The notes: a model not told the origin generated them from the letters alone. Positions 10,563 to 14,630 are shown, counted from the stretch's first letter. The stretch is DNA of 64,000 nt from a virus (IMGVR_UViG_3300020159_001814:13793-77792), one strand, 5' to 3'. Made by a program: numbers and translations.

Positions 10563-11145
10563 TTAGTTTTTTTAATAGTTTAAAATCAAAAGCCGGATTT
10601 ACGTCTTTATGTGTTATATCAAAATTACTTTTAGATACCACACCGTTAAAGTTTTTAACATTATCCCACTTAACATTTGTCCCCAAACATTCTTTATTAA
10701 TGTTGAAATTATCACAAAGGGTTAATATTAACTTAGACAAGCTTTCTATTTGTTTATCTGTGTAAATGTCCCAATATGATTGATCCCTCCATTTTTTTTC
10801 AAATACTTCTCTTTTATAAATATCCCCTAACCATGTTACATACGTATCTTCTATAGGATTTTTTTTAAACCATCCTAAATTCTCTAAAGATATTGTTATT
10901 GCGTTTTTATCTATATCGATATCTTCCATATATAAAGAGTAACGACTTGGGTCCATTATGGTGTAAATGTCACCACTTTTTGTAATCACATAATTTGGTA
11001 AGTATGGGTTTTTTTTATTATAACGGTACCTTAAAGAATTAATATAATCTTTATAAGACCTTTTAGTGTCTGTCAGGATTATTTGTTTTTTATCTTTGTT
11101 TTCACCGAAATACTTAAAATCTGTCAATTCGTAGTGATCCACCAT
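10549..11145 (-). CDS. N-acetylmuramoyl-L-alanine amidase (Amidase_2/PGRP fold)-like protein, apparently degenerate active site
   Basis: Fold motifs NYVITKSGDIY, ISLENLG, YTDKQIESL..L, KDVNPAFD; expected Zn-ligand His positions read IILTDT and VVSKSN. Confidence 0.7.
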   Translation of the reverse strand: MVDHYELTDFKYFGENKDKKQIILTDTKRSYKDYINSLRYRYNKKNPYLPNYVITKSGDIYTIMDPSRYSLYMEDIDIDKNAITISLENLGWFKKNPIEDTYVTWLGDIYKREVFEKKWRDQSYWDIYTDKQIESLSKLILTLCDNFNINKECLGTNVKWDNVKNFNGVVSKSNFDITHKDVNPAFDFKLLKKLIGND

Positions 11146-12238
11146 TTCTATTTGTGTATGTCAGACGTTTAGGTTGTTCTTCAGTAGATTCCACTATGTT
11201 ATCTTCTTTTTTTTCTAAAATATCATAGTCTTTGTTTTCAAAATAATCTTCAACAGGTAAAAATTCTTTTTTTACGGGTACTTCCACTATTTTTTCAACT
11301 ATTTTTTCTACAGGTACTTCCACTATTTTTTCAATAATAATGGGGTCTACTTGGTCGGTACTTGGTCGGTTGTTAGTCGGTACTTGATCGGTAACTTGGG
11401 GGGTAACTTGGGGGGTAACTTGGGGGGTATCGTCTTCTTTTCGTCTTGATTTAAAAGCTTGGTTTGTGGCAATAACTAACGTGATGGCTAATGGGTCAAA
11501 CACAAAGATTAAAATTAGAATGAACAGGTTCGCAGTTCTTTTAATATCCCAATCAAGTAATTCACTAACATATTTTAAAGCTCCTAACTCACTTCCTGAT
11601 ATTTCTTCTGACTCCATATTTAAAATATCAACATCTAGTTTAGTTATACTATCATTCATATTATCTATTCTTTTAGCTATAGTATCTCTTCTTACTTGTG
11701 CTTGTGATAGTTGTGTTTCAAATGTTTTTCTATTTGCGTTATTAGCCCTTGTTACAACTTGACCCGTTCGTTTATCTACGGACTGAGTTGTTGTATTATT
11801 AGATAATCCATCCCTTAGTTTGGTAATGTCTCCATCTAATGTGTTTTTTTCCTTAGTTAATTCATCTTTGACTTCTTCAAACCTTTTCTTTTTAACTTCA
11901 ATGTTTTTAACTTGTTTTTCGTTTATTTCAAGTTTCGCTATATTCCCTTGGAATCCTGTACTTAGTAATCCGTATATCCCTAACGATGTGATCAGTGATA
12001 AAATCACAAGTGCGGTTGTTAAATATATCTTTAAAACCCCGTAAGTTTGTTTCCATTTGTCGTGTAGGTATGTTGCAATTGCAATTTTAGAAATTTCAAG
12101 GAAAGACCCCATTATAATAACTGGGATTGCAACACCAACAAAGACAATAGAAAGTCCAACAACGGAATAATATGCTGCAGTTCCTGATAGTCCCAACGCA
12201 CAAATTAACATAAACCACGGTAAAAATTTTTCTTTCAT
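11114..12238 (-). CDS. Multi-TM membrane protein with long coiled coil and repetitive tail
   Basis: Three N-terminal TMs, coiled coil, TM with FDPLA, PQVT and EKIVEVPV repeats. Confidence 0.75.
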   Translation of the reverse strand: MKEKFLPWFMLICALGLSGTAAYYSVVGLSIVFVGVAIPVIIMGSFLEISKIAIATYLHDKWKQTYGVLKIYLTTALVILSLITSLGIYGLLSTGFQGNIAKLEINEKQVKNIEVKKKRFEEVKDELTKEKNTLDGDITKLRDGLSNNTTTQSVDKRTGQVVTRANNANRKTFETQLSQAQVRRDTIAKRIDNMNDSITKLDVDILNMESEEISGSELGALKYVSELLDWDIKRTANLFILILIFVFDPLAITLVIATNQAFKSRRKEDDTPQVTPQVTPQVTDQVPTNNRPSTDQVDPIIIEKIVEVPVEKIVEKIVEVPVKKEFLPVEDYFENKDYDILEKKEDNIVESTEEQPKRLTYTNRNGGSLRIDRF

Positions 12239-12284
12239 ATTATTAAACTATAATTAATAAATACTTATAATAAAGATTAACATT

Positions 12285-12734
12285 ATGTCATTACTTAGAG
12301 AGTCAATAAGAAAGCACTTATTAGTTGAAAAAACTATCGCTCAAATTATTTCAAATATAGAAGTTTCATTCAATCTTGAAATTGATCGCAGTTTTCATGC
12401 TTTCGATAGAAAAAAAAGAAGCGACTTAGAAGGTAAGGGATTTGAATTAAGTGGTAAACACAGTTATGAATATAACCAAAGAGAAATAAGTAATCCTGAA
12501 ATAAAAGAAGTCATTAATTTATCAAAAAAAGAAATTGCGGAAAAAATTGTATCAAGAGAAATCAACGATGAAGTTCCGTTTATTATAAAGTCTTTGAAGT
12601 GGGAAGTGGCAATTACTATAATACCAATGTTTCAGGGTGGAACGTATTGGATATTAAAAGTTAAGACAGTATTTAGGGAATCATTAGATAACCCTTTTAG
12701 GGTTGGTAAAGAACAATTAGTTATTTGGGTATAA
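12285..12734 (+). CDS. Hypothetical protein, possible BECR/RelE-like ribonuclease fold
   Basis: SFHAFDR...REISNPEIKEVI...VKTVF pattern resembles HAxxR / Is..EI / vxTv small RNase folds. Confidence 0.45.
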   Translation: MSLLRESIRKHLLVEKTIAQIISNIEVSFNLEIDRSFHAFDRKKRSDLEGKGFELSGKHSYEYNQREISNPEIKEVINLSKKEIAEKIVSREINDEVPFIIKSLKWEVAITIIPMFQGGTYWILKVKTVFRESLDNPFRVGKEQLVIWV

Positions 12735-12765
12735 ATAAAAAATCCCACCGGTACCAGTGGGATTT
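12735..12765 (-). terminator. Intrinsic terminator
   Basis: Minus strand AAATCCCACTG-GTAC-CGGTGGGATTT followed by T-rich run; G-U pair only on minus strand. Confidence 0.75.
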
Positions 12766-12875
12766 CGTAGTTTCATCTTACCATATAGATAAGATTGAGG
12801 AATTTCACCCTGAGAACCTCGTGTCTCATTCCGCCGAGTTGTAAGGGTAATCTCGGTTCAACCCTTTTTGTTTGT
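12737..12875 (-). ncRNA. Candidate structured ncRNA (two H-type pseudoknots, a hairpin and a terminator)
   Basis: GC-enriched intergenic island with no ORF in the track; own TATCTTTG promoter; nested complementary segments. Confidence 0.6.
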
Positions 12876-12879
12876 CTTA

Positions 12880-12887
12880 CAAAGATA
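12880..12887 (-). promoter_or_regulatory. TAnnTTTG promoter element upstream of the candidate ncRNA
   Basis: TATCTTTG on minus strand with no ORF downstream before the terminator. Confidence 0.6.
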
Positions 12888-12899
12888 TATCTTTTTTTA

Positions 12900-13187
12900 T
12901 TACAAACCTAACATTTCACCGACTTTTTTGAAATGTTTTTCAATTTTGTTCAAAGCTGCTGTTGCTTTTTGTTTGGTATTGAAATATGCGTAGAATTGAC
13001 AGGATTCAGAATCAAATTCGGCAGTTATCTTTAATGTTTTTTCAACAAAACTTTCAAATTCATATGCGTCTTCCCATTTACGAATTGTGTTTTTATTGGG
13101 GAAACCTGTTAATGTCCATTGAGCCCCTTCCCAATTACCTTTAGTGATTGTTAATCCTACATTATAGATTGTTTCTGTGTTTGTCAT
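12900..13187 (-). CDS. Hypothetical protein (early-type promoter)
   Basis: 95-aa ORF with full consensus promoter upstream. Confidence 0.75.
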   Translation of the reverse strand: MTNTETIYNVGLTITKGNWEGAQWTLTGFPNKNTIRKWEDAYEFESFVEKTLKITAEFDSESCQFYAYFNTKQKATAALNKIEKHFKKVGEMLGL

Positions 13188-13207
13188 AGTTTTTTAGTTT
13201 TGTTTTA

Positions 13208-13239
13208 CAAATATATGACGTTTATATCAATCTACCAAA
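13208..13239 (-). promoter_or_regulatory. Bacteroidota-type sigma70 promoter
   Basis: TTTG(13239-13236), 20-nt spacer, TATATTTG(13215-13208). Confidence 0.7.
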
Positions 13240-13243
13240 TTTA

Positions 13244-14047
13244 TTACCCTAAATATTCAAATAAATCTGAACATTCGTTTCTTAACTTACGTAAAGCTTT
13301 TTCTTTAATTTGTCTTACACGTTCTTTGGTTAATGAAAAATCAGTTCCAATATCTTCTAGTGTTCTTGGTGTGCCTGTAATCCCGTAATAGTCTTCAACA
13401 ATTACCCTTTCTCTTTCGTCAAGTACACACATTATTTTCATCATTTTTTCTTTTAGTGCGTCTTTTGTTGAAAATATTTCGTCGGGAGCAACTACGTTAT
13501 CATTTTTAATAATATCAACTAGTGTGTCACCGTCTTCGTTTATATGCATATCCAAATCAATCATTCTTGGTAGGTTTGCAAACTTATCAGATAATTCTTT
13601 ATTTGTTTTTTCGTTTTCACGTTTTTCTTTTTGCATGTCTTGTACGACATTTACCGGAAGTCTGATGGTACGTGAATTTTCGTTAAGTGATTGTAAAATT
13701 GATTGTTTAATCCACCAAACAGCGTAAGATATAAATCTATTATTTTTAGTCCAATCAAAATTATTAATCGCTTTCATTAAACCAAAGTTACCTTCAGCAA
13801 TTAAGTCAGACAAATCAATCCCTTGATTTTGGTATTGTTTTGCTACTGTAATAACAAAACGTAGATTACCTTCTAACATTTCTTTTTGGATCTGTTTCTT
13901 TTCTCTTTCGGTACAATCTTTAGAACAAATACGTTCAGATAGTATTTTTTCTCTTTCAGGTGTCATCACCTTTAATTTTCTAATATCTTTCAAATAAATT
14001 TGAATTTCATCCTGATTTAAAGGGTTTGTTGATTTTACTTCTTCCAT
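13244..14047 (-). CDS. RNA polymerase sigma-70 factor, RpoD/SigA-like without region 1.1
   Basis: NLRFVITVAKQYQNQG, DLIAEGNFGL, FISYAVWWIKQSI, TIRLP, region 4 TLEDIG...LTKERVRQIKEKALRKL. Confidence 0.93.
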   Translation of the reverse strand: MEEVKSTNPLNQDEIQIYLKDIRKLKVMTPEREKILSERICSKDCTEREKKQIQKEMLEGNLRFVITVAKQYQNQGIDLSDLIAEGNFGLMKAINNFDWTKNNRFISYAVWWIKQSILQSLNENSRTIRLPVNVVQDMQKEKRENEKTNKELSDKFANLPRMIDLDMHINEDGDTLVDIIKNDNVVAPDEIFSTKDALKEKMMKIMCVLDERERVIVEDYYGITGTPRTLEDIGTDFSLTKERVRQIKEKALRKLRNECSDLFEYLG

Positions 14048-14048
14048 T

Positions 14049-14630
14049 TTACTTCTTTCCATAATTTTCTAAAATTTGTTTTTCTCTTTCTGTTAATGAT
14101 TCTATTCCTGTTTCTGTTATCTTATCTAATATATCGTCTATACTTGGGTCTTTTACTATTTCGTCTTCGTTCGTTTTAAAGAAATTTGGGTCCATGATTG
14201 GGAACATCATGTGGTAAATATCCATTTCTTTTTTTGTTGGTTTGAATTTAATTTCTGTCGGTTCACCTATTTCAATACTTCCATTTTTATTTTGTGGTTT
14301 TTCATCATCAATATTAAGGAAATCTTTCTTTAGTGGTCTATCCATTTTTACATCAAAATTCGTACCTACTTCAACAAGATAATATTGTTCAGTAATTTCA
14401 TTTAATGACATGTCAATATATTCTTTTAAATCATTAAATGTTTCTTTTGTTCTAAAATGACAAACCATACCAAATTCACCGTAGTTAAATTTAATGAATT
14501 TTGAGCTAACTATGGCAATTAATTGGTAATTAATTTCATTTACAAGATTTTCGTCGTCTGAAAAATCACCGAATAAAAATAACATATATCGTTTATCTTT
14601 AATCGCCATATTCTTAGTCTTCTTTTTCAT
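14049..14630 (-). CDS. Hypothetical protein with C-terminal DUF6576-like motif
   Basis: IDDILDKITETGIESLTEREKQIL; start moved downstream of TATATTTG at 14653-14660. Confidence 0.6.
   Translation of the reverse strand: MKKKTKNMAIKDKRYMLFLFGDFSDDENLVNEINYQLIAIVSSKFIKFNYGEFGMVCHFRTKETFNDLKEYIDMSLNEITEQYYLVEVGTNFDVKMDRPLKKDFLNIDDEKPQNKNGSIEIGEPTEIKFKPTKKEMDIYHMMFPIMDPNFFKTNEDEIVKDPSIDDILDKITETGIESLTEREKQILENYGKK

What the first reader, a model, noticed from the sequence alone, without database searches (positions are those of the whole stretch)
12737..12887. Unannotated stand-alone ncRNA with two tandem pseudoknots
Seen (minus strand): promoter TATCTTTG, then AAGGGU-ugaa-CCGAG-auu-ACCCUU-acaa-CUCGG (H-type pseudoknot 1: AAGGGU/ACCCUU and CCGAG/CUCGG). 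Next is UGAGA-cac-GAGG-u-UCUCA-gggugaaauu-CCUC (pseudoknot 2), then hairpin AUCUUAUC-uauau-GGUAAGAU and a terminator. G-U pairs in both hairpins work only on the minus strand. The island is GC-richer than its flanks and has no ORF in the track. Inference: an early ~135-nt phage RNA. It could be a decoy for type III toxin-antitoxin/abortive-infection RNases (ToxI antitoxins are tandem pseudoknots, and phiTE uses pseudo-ToxI), a protein-binding regulator near the sigma gene, or a nuclease-resistant RNA. I cannot assign it to a known family.
Basis: partly seen in the sequence, partly recalled or inferred. Interest (0 to 1): 0.8.

Follow-up and report, generated by a model that had tools for sequence, protein, structure and literature searches.

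The report
Pseudoknotted phage small RNA, RNase-linked
The flagged stretch is a real, uncatalogued small RNA of about 135 bases from large freshwater phages, with one nearly invariant pseudoknot (not two) and three hairpins; it lies tail-to-tail with a gene for a probable RNA-cutting enzyme and is most likely that enzyme's RNA partner, although about half of its relatives carry the RNA alone.

Summary
Real feature, partly misread. The minus-strand element 12733-12887 belongs to an RNA family found once each in 95 IMG/VR contigs of large freshwater phages (63 distinct sequences) and in 2 Bacteroidota MAG contigs. Rfam 15 has no match. Covariation supports a host-type promoter, a 5' H-type pseudoknot (S1 closing pair AU/UA; S2 G-C to A-U in two metagenome contigs), hairpins P3, P4 and P5, and a terminator.

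The terminator tail overlaps the stop codon of a convergent 149-aa gene with weak RelE/RegB-like fold matches. All 80 relatives of that gene examined have a convergent small RNA: this one in 19, and a different two-loop RNA in 61. My best reading is an RNA partner (inhibitor, decoy or substrate) of that putative RNase, confidence 0.4. Against it, only 36-38 of 88 RNA loci have the gene, two near-complete phage genomes have the RNA and no gene, and the pseudoknot is invariant either way. No expression data were obtained.

This scan found the same family before on other DNA, with similar conclusions.

The parts
12880..12887 (-). Bacteroidota-type -7 promoter motif TATCTTTG (TAnnTTTG). The inferred start of the RNA is a few bases downstream, near 12873.
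   Evidence: Sequence. The motif is in the same position in 18 of 24 distinct homologous contexts without an abutting ORF stop, against a background of 1.09 per kb per strand. The start site itself is inferred, not mapped.
12834..12865 (-). 5' H-type pseudoknot domain. S1 is 12865-12861 with 12848-12844. Loop 1 is UGAA. S2 is 12856-12852 with 12838-12834. Loop 2 is AUU. Loop 3 is UACAA. The domain is nearly invariant across the family.
   Evidence: invariance. (S1 closing pair AU 34, UA 21, other 8). (S2 G-C to A-U compensatory change in two metagenome contigs). A competing nested fold is not conserved.
12811..12828 (-). Hairpin P3 (UGAGA/UCUCA) with an ACGA-containing loop.
   Evidence: Four covarying pairs. 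ACGA is in the loop in 27 of 27 distinct RNAs that have the adjacent 149-aa gene, and in 13 of 31 without it.
12798..12810 (-). Hairpin P4 (GGG/CCU, loop UGAAAUU).
Evidence: Pair 64-78 of alignment A1 is AU 34, GU 19, GC 9, other 1.
12775..12795 (-). Hairpin P5 (AUCUUAUC/GGUAAGAU, loop UAUAU), followed by the conserved linker GAAACUAC (12774-12767).
   Evidence: Four covarying pairs and three pairs with one-sided G-U changes.
12733..12766 (-). Intrinsic terminator (12-bp stem, loop GUAC, U-rich tail). The tail overlaps the stop codon of the convergent gene.
   Evidence: Eight covarying pairs. The gene's stop codon is at 12732-12734.
12285..12734 (+). Convergent 149-aa gene, a putative RelE/RegB-like (BECR-fold) RNase and the candidate protein partner of the RNA.
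   Evidence: 123 homologs, none with a Pfam domain. Invariant residues H38, R42, R45, Y63, E72, K102, S103, R131, E132. AF2 pLDDT 77. VIA-align best Z 5.7 (CdiA-CT), then RelE, HigB, ParE, RegB and colicin E5/D at Z 3-4.6. All 80 related loci have a convergent small RNA.
12900..13187 (-). Upstream 95-aa ORF of unknown function (context). There is no terminator between it and the RNA, so the RNA may also be co-transcribed with it.
   Evidence: In relatives the slot after this ORF holds this RNA (L002-L005) or tRNA arrays (L006-L013).
13244..14062 (-). Phage sigma-70-family factor gene (context, syntenic with the RNA).
   Evidence: Pfam Sigma70_r2 and r4, PHROG 351. Upstream on the same strand in 76 of 95 RNA loci, often 5-10 nt before the pseudoknot.

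Best explanation
The element is a stand-alone small RNA gene of about 135 nt. In many relatives the same RNA forms the 3' end of the sigma-factor transcript. It folds into an invariant 5' H-type pseudoknot, three hairpins and a terminator.

It most likely acts in trans as a structured, protein-binding RNA that partners the convergent 149-aa putative RelE/RegB-like RNase. It would hold the enzyme in check or divert it, as inhibitor, decoy or preferred substrate. The ACGA-bearing P3 loop is the likely contact.

The RNA has a host-type promoter. The RNase gene instead has a different conserved upstream motif, GTATTTATA. This suggests that the RNA accumulates first.

Where the gene is absent, the RNA would persist as an 'orphan' that neutralises related RNases of competing phages, or it would serve a second function carried by the pseudoknot.

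Shown: the RNA family, its fold, its promoter and terminator, the gene-RNA adjacency and its conservation.
Inferred: RNase activity, binding, direction of control and timing.
For: 1. Real structured RNA: 95 viral contigs, 63 distinct sequences, covariation in S1, P3, P4, P5 and the terminator. S2 has a compensatory change.
2. Tail-to-tail with the 149-aa gene, with the terminator tail overlapping the stop codon. The same geometry recurs in 19 related gene loci.
3. From the gene's side, 80 of 80 homolog loci have a convergent small RNA abutting the stop. In 19 it is this pseudoknot RNA. In 61 it is a different RNA with its own TAnnTTTG promoter and one or two loops reading GGNAACGAUUNAGAUACAA. 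The flanks differ widely, including positions inside tRNA arrays.
4. No small protein-antitoxin-like ORF is conserved upstream of the gene.
5. The pseudoknot RNA plus gene pair also occurs where sigma and the 374-aa ORF (window 11114-12238) are absent: the L032, L014 and L026 groups.
6. ACGA is in the P3 loop in 27 of 27 RNAs with the gene, and in 13 of 31 without it. ACGA is also the core of the other RNA's loop motif.
7. The protein has invariant H, R, R, Y, E, K, S, R and E residues. Its structural neighbours are enriched for RelE, HigB, ParE, RegB and colicin E5/D RNases.
8. A complete relative that has the gene with another RNA type has no pseudoknot RNA. The RNA types therefore look like alternatives in one slot.
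Against: - Only 36-38 of 88 pseudoknot-RNA loci have the gene. 49 of 88 go straight on to a homolog of the 374-aa ORF.
- Near-complete genomes G001 (99%) and G003 (93%) have the RNA but no gene homolog. Positive controls matched in 5 of 5 records.
- The pseudoknot domain is equally invariant with or without the gene, and it is absent from the other RNA type that accompanies the gene. Its selection is therefore not explained by the RNase.
- The RNase assignment is weak: no Pfam, PHROG, PADLOC or PDB sequence match, Foldseek E above 0.4, and best Z 5.7.
- Much of the adjacency could be shared ancestry. The ACGA association may rest on a single clade.
- Two bacterial MAG copies have no such gene.
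- There is no expression or binding data.
Confidence: 0.4

Rival explanations
1. It is an autonomous trans-acting phage RNA whose invariant pseudoknot binds some host or phage factor, such as transcription or translation machinery or an RNA-binding protein. The RNase-like gene is merely an optional insertion at a hot spot beside it.
For: - The RNA is present and invariant in phages that lack the gene, including two near-complete genomes.
- The gene is a clean insertion between the terminator and the 374-aa ORF homolog.
- The slot is a variable region that holds small ORFs or tRNA arrays in relatives.
- The pseudoknot is far more conserved than the flanking proteins, which suggests a conserved binding partner.
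- Copies occur in two bacterial MAG contigs without the gene.
Against: - It does not explain why all 80 homologs of the gene carry a convergent small RNA in many different contexts.
- It does not explain why the pseudoknot RNA plus gene pair recurs outside the sigma synteny.
- No partner or target could be identified.
Confidence: 0.25
2. It is an antisense-type (type I-like) control. The RNA and the mRNA of the convergent gene overlap at their 3' ends, and the RNA regulates the gene by duplex formation or transcriptional interference, not by binding the protein.
For: - The orientation is convergent, with a shared palindromic terminator overlapping the stop codon.
- On the gene's strand the hairpin is followed by a poor U-tract, so read-through into the RNA gene is plausible.
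- Different RNA types can accompany the same gene, as expected if only the arrangement matters.
Against: - Conserved, structured, non-overlapping parts (the pseudoknot, the loop motifs) are not needed for antisense action.
- Known type I toxins are small hydrophobic peptides (my own knowledge), unlike this 149-aa protein.
- Bidirectional terminators between convergent genes are common.
- It does not explain the gene-less copies.
Confidence: 0.1
3. It is a cis-acting 3'-end module. It would be a stabiliser, processing or termination element for the sigma or upstream mRNA, or an attenuator in front of the 374-aa ORF.
For: - In 34 of 58 distinct contexts the pseudoknot starts within 20 nt of an ORF stop, usually that of sigma, with no promoter between.
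- In 49 of 88 loci a co-directional gene starts 30-60 nt after the terminator.
Against: - Wherever no ORF stop abuts it, the RNA has its own promoter, as in this window.
- It is retained when a convergent gene separates it from the 374-aa ORF (window).
- Sequence invariance far exceeds what a stabilising structure needs.
- No conserved antiterminator alternative was found: the alternative fold is not conserved.
Confidence: 0.1
4. It is a ligand-sensing aptamer or a small self-cleaving ribozyme.
For: The compact pseudoknot of about 32 nt is nearly invariant, with an A-rich third loop. This resembles small pseudoknotted aptamers (my own knowledge). Conservation begins sharply at the first G of the pseudoknot.
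Against: - No Rfam riboswitch or ribozyme family matches, even at E up to 10.
- In this window there is no downstream gene to regulate.
- The topology lacks the extra helices of HDV-like, twister or pistol ribozymes (read from the sequence).
Confidence: 0.05
5. One reading: it is a decoy (pseudo-ToxI-like) against host type III toxin-antitoxin or abortive-infection RNases.
For: It is a pseudoknotted phage RNA. Orphan copies in gene-less phages would suit a decoy role.
Against: - There are no tandem repeats.
- There is no similarity to a ToxI family in Rfam.
- Type III families are reported from Firmicutes, Fusobacteria and Proteobacteria (PMC3401426), whereas the promoters and MAG copies here point to Bacteroidota hosts.
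- In the sampled host family only 1 of 151 genomes has a look-alike RNA.
Confidence: 0.05

Closest known systems
Type III toxin-antitoxin systems (ToxIN, CptIN, TenpIN; PMC3401426)
   Same: A pseudoknotted RNA is encoded next to a gene for a putative endoribonuclease with no protein antitoxin nearby. The gene family is always accompanied by a small RNA. Some partner RNAs carry a repeated motif, and one locus (L316) has a tandem duplicate.
   Different: The RNA here is a single non-repetitive unit of about 135 nt. It is convergent with the gene, not upstream and co-directional. The protein shows weak RelE/BECR-like fold matches, not ToxN/AbiQ. The element is phage-encoded in probable Bacteroidota phages. 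The RNA often occurs without the gene. Neither toxicity nor processing has been shown.
Type I toxin-antitoxin pairs with 3'-overlapping convergent RNAs (for example bsrG/SR4 and txpA/RatA of Bacillus; my own knowledge)
   Same: A tail-to-tail small RNA and gene share or overlap their terminators.
   Different: Those toxins are small membrane peptides, and the RNA acts by long antisense overlap. Here the protein has 149 aa, and the conserved parts of the RNA lie outside any overlap.
Phage T4 RegB endoribonuclease (PDB 2hx6)
   Same: It is a phage-encoded protein of about 150 aa. RegB appears among the structural neighbours (Z 3.8, 93 residues aligned). From my own knowledge, RegB is a RelE-related, sequence-specific RNase.
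   Different: There is no sequence similarity and the Z-score is low. No RNA partner is known for RegB.
Compact H-type pseudoknots with A-rich third loops (luteoviral frameshift pseudoknots, preQ1-type aptamers; my own knowledge)
   Same: Two short helices of 5 bp each, short loops and an A-rich loop 3. Invariance of the stems could reflect base triples.
   Different: There is no slippery site or open frame, because the spacing to the upstream stop codon varies. It is not upstream of a regulated gene here. No Rfam match.
Automated catalogue of 8,495 candidate structured RNAs from IMG/VR (PMC10690425)
   Same: It uses the same data source (IMG/VR intergenic regions) and the same kind of evidence (covariation). 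This family may be one of its anonymous 'DNAVirus_X' entries.
   Different: I could not check this, because the supplementary alignments are not held. The paper's main text has no occurrence of 'sigma' or 'jumbo' and only one of 'toxin'.

Membership tests
Type III toxin-antitoxin antitoxin RNA (ToxI/CptI/TenpI) | The antitoxin is encoded by short tandem repeats (PMC3401426 abstract). | tested here: not met
   No tandem repeat in 12600-13000. The RNA is a single unit with distinct domains.
Type III toxin-antitoxin antitoxin RNA (ToxI/CptI/TenpI) | The RNA gene lies upstream of the toxin gene (PMC3401426 abstract). | tested here: not met
   The RNA is convergent, tail-to-tail with the 149-aa gene.
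Type III toxin-antitoxin antitoxin RNA (ToxI/CptI/TenpI) | [quoted passage not shown] | tested here: inconclusive
   No Pfam or PADLOC match of any kind. The structural neighbours are RelE-like and BECR-fold RNases at low Z.
Type III toxin-antitoxin antitoxin RNA (ToxI/CptI/TenpI) | The protein is toxic and is inhibited by direct binding of the pseudoknot RNA. | not testable with these tools
   This needs expression, binding and cleavage assays.
H-type RNA pseudoknot | Two helices in which the loop of the first pairs downstream. Both should be supported by conservation of pairing. | tested here: met
   S1 closing pair is AU 34, UA 21, other 8, with the other four pairs invariant. S2 is invariant in IMG/VR and changes G-C to A-U in both metagenome variants found. 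The phylogeny-aware test is underpowered, with 2 independent pairs on supported branches.
   The middle pair is paired in 14 of 63 sequences, with no change on both sides. CCU pairs with RGG instead.
Any Rfam 15 family | Covariance-model score at or above the gathering threshold. | tested here: not met
   0 matches in the whole window. The best sub-threshold hit scores 17 bits at E 1.7.
RelE/ParE-like (BECR-fold) endoribonuclease, for the 149-aa protein | Family profile match, or a clear structural match to the fold. | tested here: inconclusive
   No Pfam match for 45 members. No PDB sequence match. Foldseek E at least 0.4. VIA-align Z is 5.7 to 3, but with many RelE, HigB, ParE, RegB and colicin hits.
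Riboswitch or transcription attenuator | An aptamer plus terminator directly upstream of the regulated gene, with a conserved alternative pairing. | tested here: not met
   In this window the next gene is convergent. The only alternative fold found is not conserved.
tRNA or tmRNA | Cloverleaf or tmRNA detected. | tested here: not met
   ARAGORN finds none in the window or in 43 homologous loci.

The most novel reading that the evidence does not exclude
This would be a new kind of RNA-protein toxin-antitoxin-like module. A RelE/BECR-fold RNase carried by phages is neutralised or steered by a structured small RNA encoded tail-to-tail with it. The RNA scaffolds are interchangeable: an invariant pseudoknot type and a two-loop ACGAUU-motif type. 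'Orphan' copies of the RNA in gene-less phages, and occasionally in bacteria, would act as immunity against the RNase of competitors.
Probability: 0.3. Interest if true: 0.8.

Novelty: new variant of a known kind. Interest (0 to 1): 0.6.

Why it matters
Few phage-encoded small RNAs have an assigned function, and very little is known of RNA biology in Bacteroidota phages.

This is a well-defined family that can be tested directly. It has about 135 nt, an almost invariant 32-nt pseudoknot, and a candidate protein partner that is always accompanied by a small RNA.

If the pairing is functional, it would extend RNA-based antitoxins to a RelE-like fold, to a convergent gene layout and to phages. 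It would also offer a model for RNA 'immunity' between competing phages.

If the pairing is not functional, the invariant pseudoknot still marks an unknown and strongly selected interaction in abundant lake phages.

Tried and rejected
- Rfam at gathering and at E up to 10 gave nothing meaningful. It gave none for the second RNA type either.
- ARAGORN found no tRNA or tmRNA.
- blastn of the element against GenBank phages found no match.
The ViennaRNA MFE alternative (UUACCCU with AGGGUGA) is not conserved.
- Scans that let S2 or S1 vary found no new viral loci.
- The phylogeny-aware test of the S1 closing pair is underpowered. There are 2 independent pairs on supported branches, both concordant, and 14 state changes on a weak tree.
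- Expression: the one freshwater metatranscriptome with any signal has a 172-nt contig over 12880-13051 only, with nothing over the RNA. This says nothing either way.
- Protein family searches found nothing: Pfam, PHROGs, PADLOC and PDB sequences. Foldseek against the PDB was not significant. The ESM Atlas scored 0.78 or less; a DUF4258 cluster at 0.75 is a lead only.
- tRNA-mimic idea: I asked whether the ACGA loops mimic the tRNA-Arg(ACG) anticodon loop. The Bacteroidota MAG tRNA has the loop CUACGGA, and the likeness is slight, so I dropped the idea.
- The second RNA's motif does not occur elsewhere in this genome fragment.
Only the 8 loci with two or more motif copies were usable.
- Host-family search with the covariance model matched 1 of 151 genomes, the one that seeded the search.
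- The supplements of PMC10690425 are not held, so I could not check whether the family is already listed there.
- One repeat finder failed on a strand argument. I used the tandem-repeat finder instead.

Full report
**What is there**

On the minus strand, after the stop of a 95-aa ORF (12900-13187), the window reads in this order:
- a TATCTTTG motif (12887-12880);
- a 32-nt domain whose segments A-GGGU/ACCC-U and CCGAG/CUCGG interleave as an H-type pseudoknot (12865-12834);
- hairpin UGAGA/UCUCA (12828-12811);
- hairpin GGG/CCU (12810-12798);
- hairpin AUCUUAUC/GGUAAGAU (12795-12775);
- a 12-bp terminator (12766-12739), whose U-rich tail overlaps the stop codon of a convergent 149-aa ORF (12285-12734, plus strand).

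The element has GC 0.41-0.43, against 0.30-0.31 in the flanks. It holds no tRNA and no tandem repeat, and it matches no Rfam 15 family. The window is part of a 77.8-kb IMG/VR virus record that CheckV rates 26% complete, so the phage is large. DNA runs that hold this stretch come from lake, river and other freshwater metagenomes.

**It is a family**

The 95-aa ORF led to 12 related loci. Four carry the same RNA, and eight carry tRNA arrays in the same slot.

A pattern fixing only the four pseudoknot strands hit 95 viral contigs, one copy each. The same pattern in 596 Gb of prokaryote genomes gave 17 hits, about the number I calculated for chance. Fifteen of them sit in unrelated, mostly GC-rich sequence and only two carry the whole element. 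Sixty-three distinct sequences were aligned as A1.

**Structure**

Counting pairs on A1:
- P3 has 4 pairs with changes on both sides, P5 has 4, the terminator has 8, and P4 has 1 (AU 34, GU 19, GC 9).
- The S1 closing pair switches between A-U (34) and U-A (21), with 8 exceptions. Its other four pairs never vary.
- S2 never varies in IMG/VR. Scans that left either helix free found no new loci.

A metagenome scan that demanded a non-G at the middle S2 position found two contigs. Both have CCAAG...CUUGG, a compensatory G-C to A-U change. They are probably one lineage.

A strict independent-pairs test for S1 is underpowered. I regard pseudoknot 1 as supported but not proven.

Its GAGG/CCUC helix pairs at the middle position in 14 of 63 sequences. 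The ViennaRNA alternative fold is not conserved either.

G-U to A-U or G-C exchanges in P4, P5 and the terminator, together with the fold z-scores (-2.74 against -1.68), fix the strand as minus.

**Transcription unit**

TAnnTTTG is the Bacteroidota -7 promoter motif (my own knowledge). It lies 8-30 nt before the pseudoknot in 18 of 24 distinct contexts that lack an abutting ORF stop. It never does so (0 of 34) where an ORF stop, usually sigma's, lies within 20 nt. Background is 1.09 per kb per strand.

The RNA is therefore a stand-alone gene here. In many relatives it is the 3' end of the sigma mRNA. No expression evidence could be obtained.

**Context**

The backbone runs sigma, then zero or one small ORF, then the RNA, then a homolog of the 374-aa ORF (window 11114-12238), then an amidase. 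Sigma is upstream on the same strand in 76 of 95 loci.

Downstream, 36 of 88 loci have a BLAST-detectable homolog of the convergent 149-aa gene. Two more have a look-alike 138-aa ORF. In 49 of 88 the RNA is followed directly by the 374-aa ORF homolog.

Near-complete genomes G001 (99%) and G003 (93%) have the RNA and no homolog of the gene. Five control records all matched.

**The gene**

The 149-aa protein has 123 homologs, none with a Pfam domain. It has invariant residues H38, R42, R45, Y63, E72, K102, S103, R131 and E132.

An AF2 model (pLDDT 77) has no significant Foldseek match. VIA-align gives CdiA-CT at Z 5.7, then a run of RelE, HigB, ParE, YafQ, RegB and colicin E5/D chains at Z 3-4.6. 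This suggests a RelE/BECR-type RNase but does not establish one.

**The gene's side of the association**

Of 80 viral loci with a homolog, 19 have this pseudoknot RNA convergent on it. The other 61 have a different convergent small RNA with its own TAnnTTTG promoter. That RNA has hairpins whose loops read GGNAACGAUUNAGAUACAA (usually two copies), and often a middle hairpin that resembles P4.

The flanks of this pair vary widely. Some pairs sit inside tRNA arrays. All 8 loci with two or more motif copies found by an independent scan have the gene. One locus has a tandem duplicate of the RNA. No small upstream ORF that could be a protein antitoxin is conserved.

The pseudoknot RNA plus gene pair also occurs in contexts lacking sigma and the 374-aa ORF. 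A complete relative that has the gene and another RNA type has no pseudoknot RNA.

ACGA is in the P3 loop of all 27 distinct RNAs that have the gene, and of 13 of 31 that lack it. This may rest on one clade.

**Reading**

The strongest comparative signal links the RNA to the putative RNase, so I rank 'RNA partner of the RNase' first, at 0.4. The link is not obligatory for this RNA. The invariant pseudoknot is selected regardless of the gene, and it is missing from the other partner RNA. The pseudoknot therefore probably carries a further, unknown interaction.

The rivals are:
- an autonomous protein-binding RNA (0.25);
- antisense control through the shared terminator (0.1);
- a cis-acting 3'-end element (0.1);
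- an aptamer or ribozyme (0.05);

**Comparison with known systems**

It works most like a type III toxin-antitoxin pair, but it fails that family's defining features of tandem repeats and an upstream co-directional RNA (PMC3401426).

It may be listed anonymously in an automated IMG/VR catalogue of structured RNAs (PMC10690425), which I could not check.

Earlier agents of this scan reached similar conclusions on other genomes. I re-tested their main claims here.

Noticed in passing
L132-L188, just past the stop of the 149-aa homolog on the opposite strand (for example L150 about 1912-2040; L169 about 1912-2035): A second small-RNA family that Rfam does not hold. It has a TAnnTTTG promoter, two hairpins whose loops carry GGNAACGAUUNAGAUACAA, often a middle hairpin like GGGCGAAAnAAUCC, and a last hairpin that serves as the terminator. 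It is always convergent on a homolog of the 149-aa gene.
   Followed up: partly
L316:6770-6950 (minus strand): Two tandem copies of that two-hairpin RNA (four motif copies) lie beside a homolog of the gene. This is the nearest thing here to a type III-like repeat array.
   Followed up: partly
L191:7480-7628 (minus) and L194:3023-3170 (plus): Copies of the pseudoknot RNA (with variant loops and different 3' parts) lie in two Bacteroidota MAG contigs, next to genes with type IX secretion sorting tails. No homolog of the 149-aa gene is in those MAGs. Only 1 of 151 genomes of the Crocinitomicaceae MAG's family has it.
   Followed up: partly
Upstream of the 149-aa homologs in L109-L188, 4-8 nt before the ATG. 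The window equivalent is about 12255-12284.: A conserved GTATTTATA-like motif lies directly before the start codon across very different contexts. It may be a phage-specific promoter, distinct from the host-type promoter of the RNA.
   Followed up: no
L006-L013, downstream of the 95-aa ORF homolog (for example L006:800-930, L008:3370-3500): tRNA arrays occupy the slot that holds the RNA in this window. Between the tRNAs lies a conserved stretch of about 130 nt with a CCUCCUCGC motif reminiscent of the HDV-ribozyme L3 loop. Rfam at gathering found only tRNAs.
   Followed up: no
L012:4519-4594 and L007:4963-5038: ARAGORN reports tRNA-like genes with odd anticodon loops (anticodon given as 'ttaa' and 'ta'). 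They may be suppressor or expanded-anticodon tRNAs, or mispredictions.
   Followed up: no
window 12815-12855; joints 12864 to 13244 and 12866 to 13250: In lake metagenome run X2, contig depth piles up to about 840 over the pseudoknot, against about 10 on the flanks. Many co-occurring phage strains therefore share this domain. Riverine run X4 holds variants in which the RNA directly follows the sigma gene, without the 95-aa ORF.
   Followed up: partly
window 12900-13187 (minus): The 95-aa ORF has a weak PADLOC hit to PD-T4-10_A (E 0.013) and no other family.
   Followed up: no
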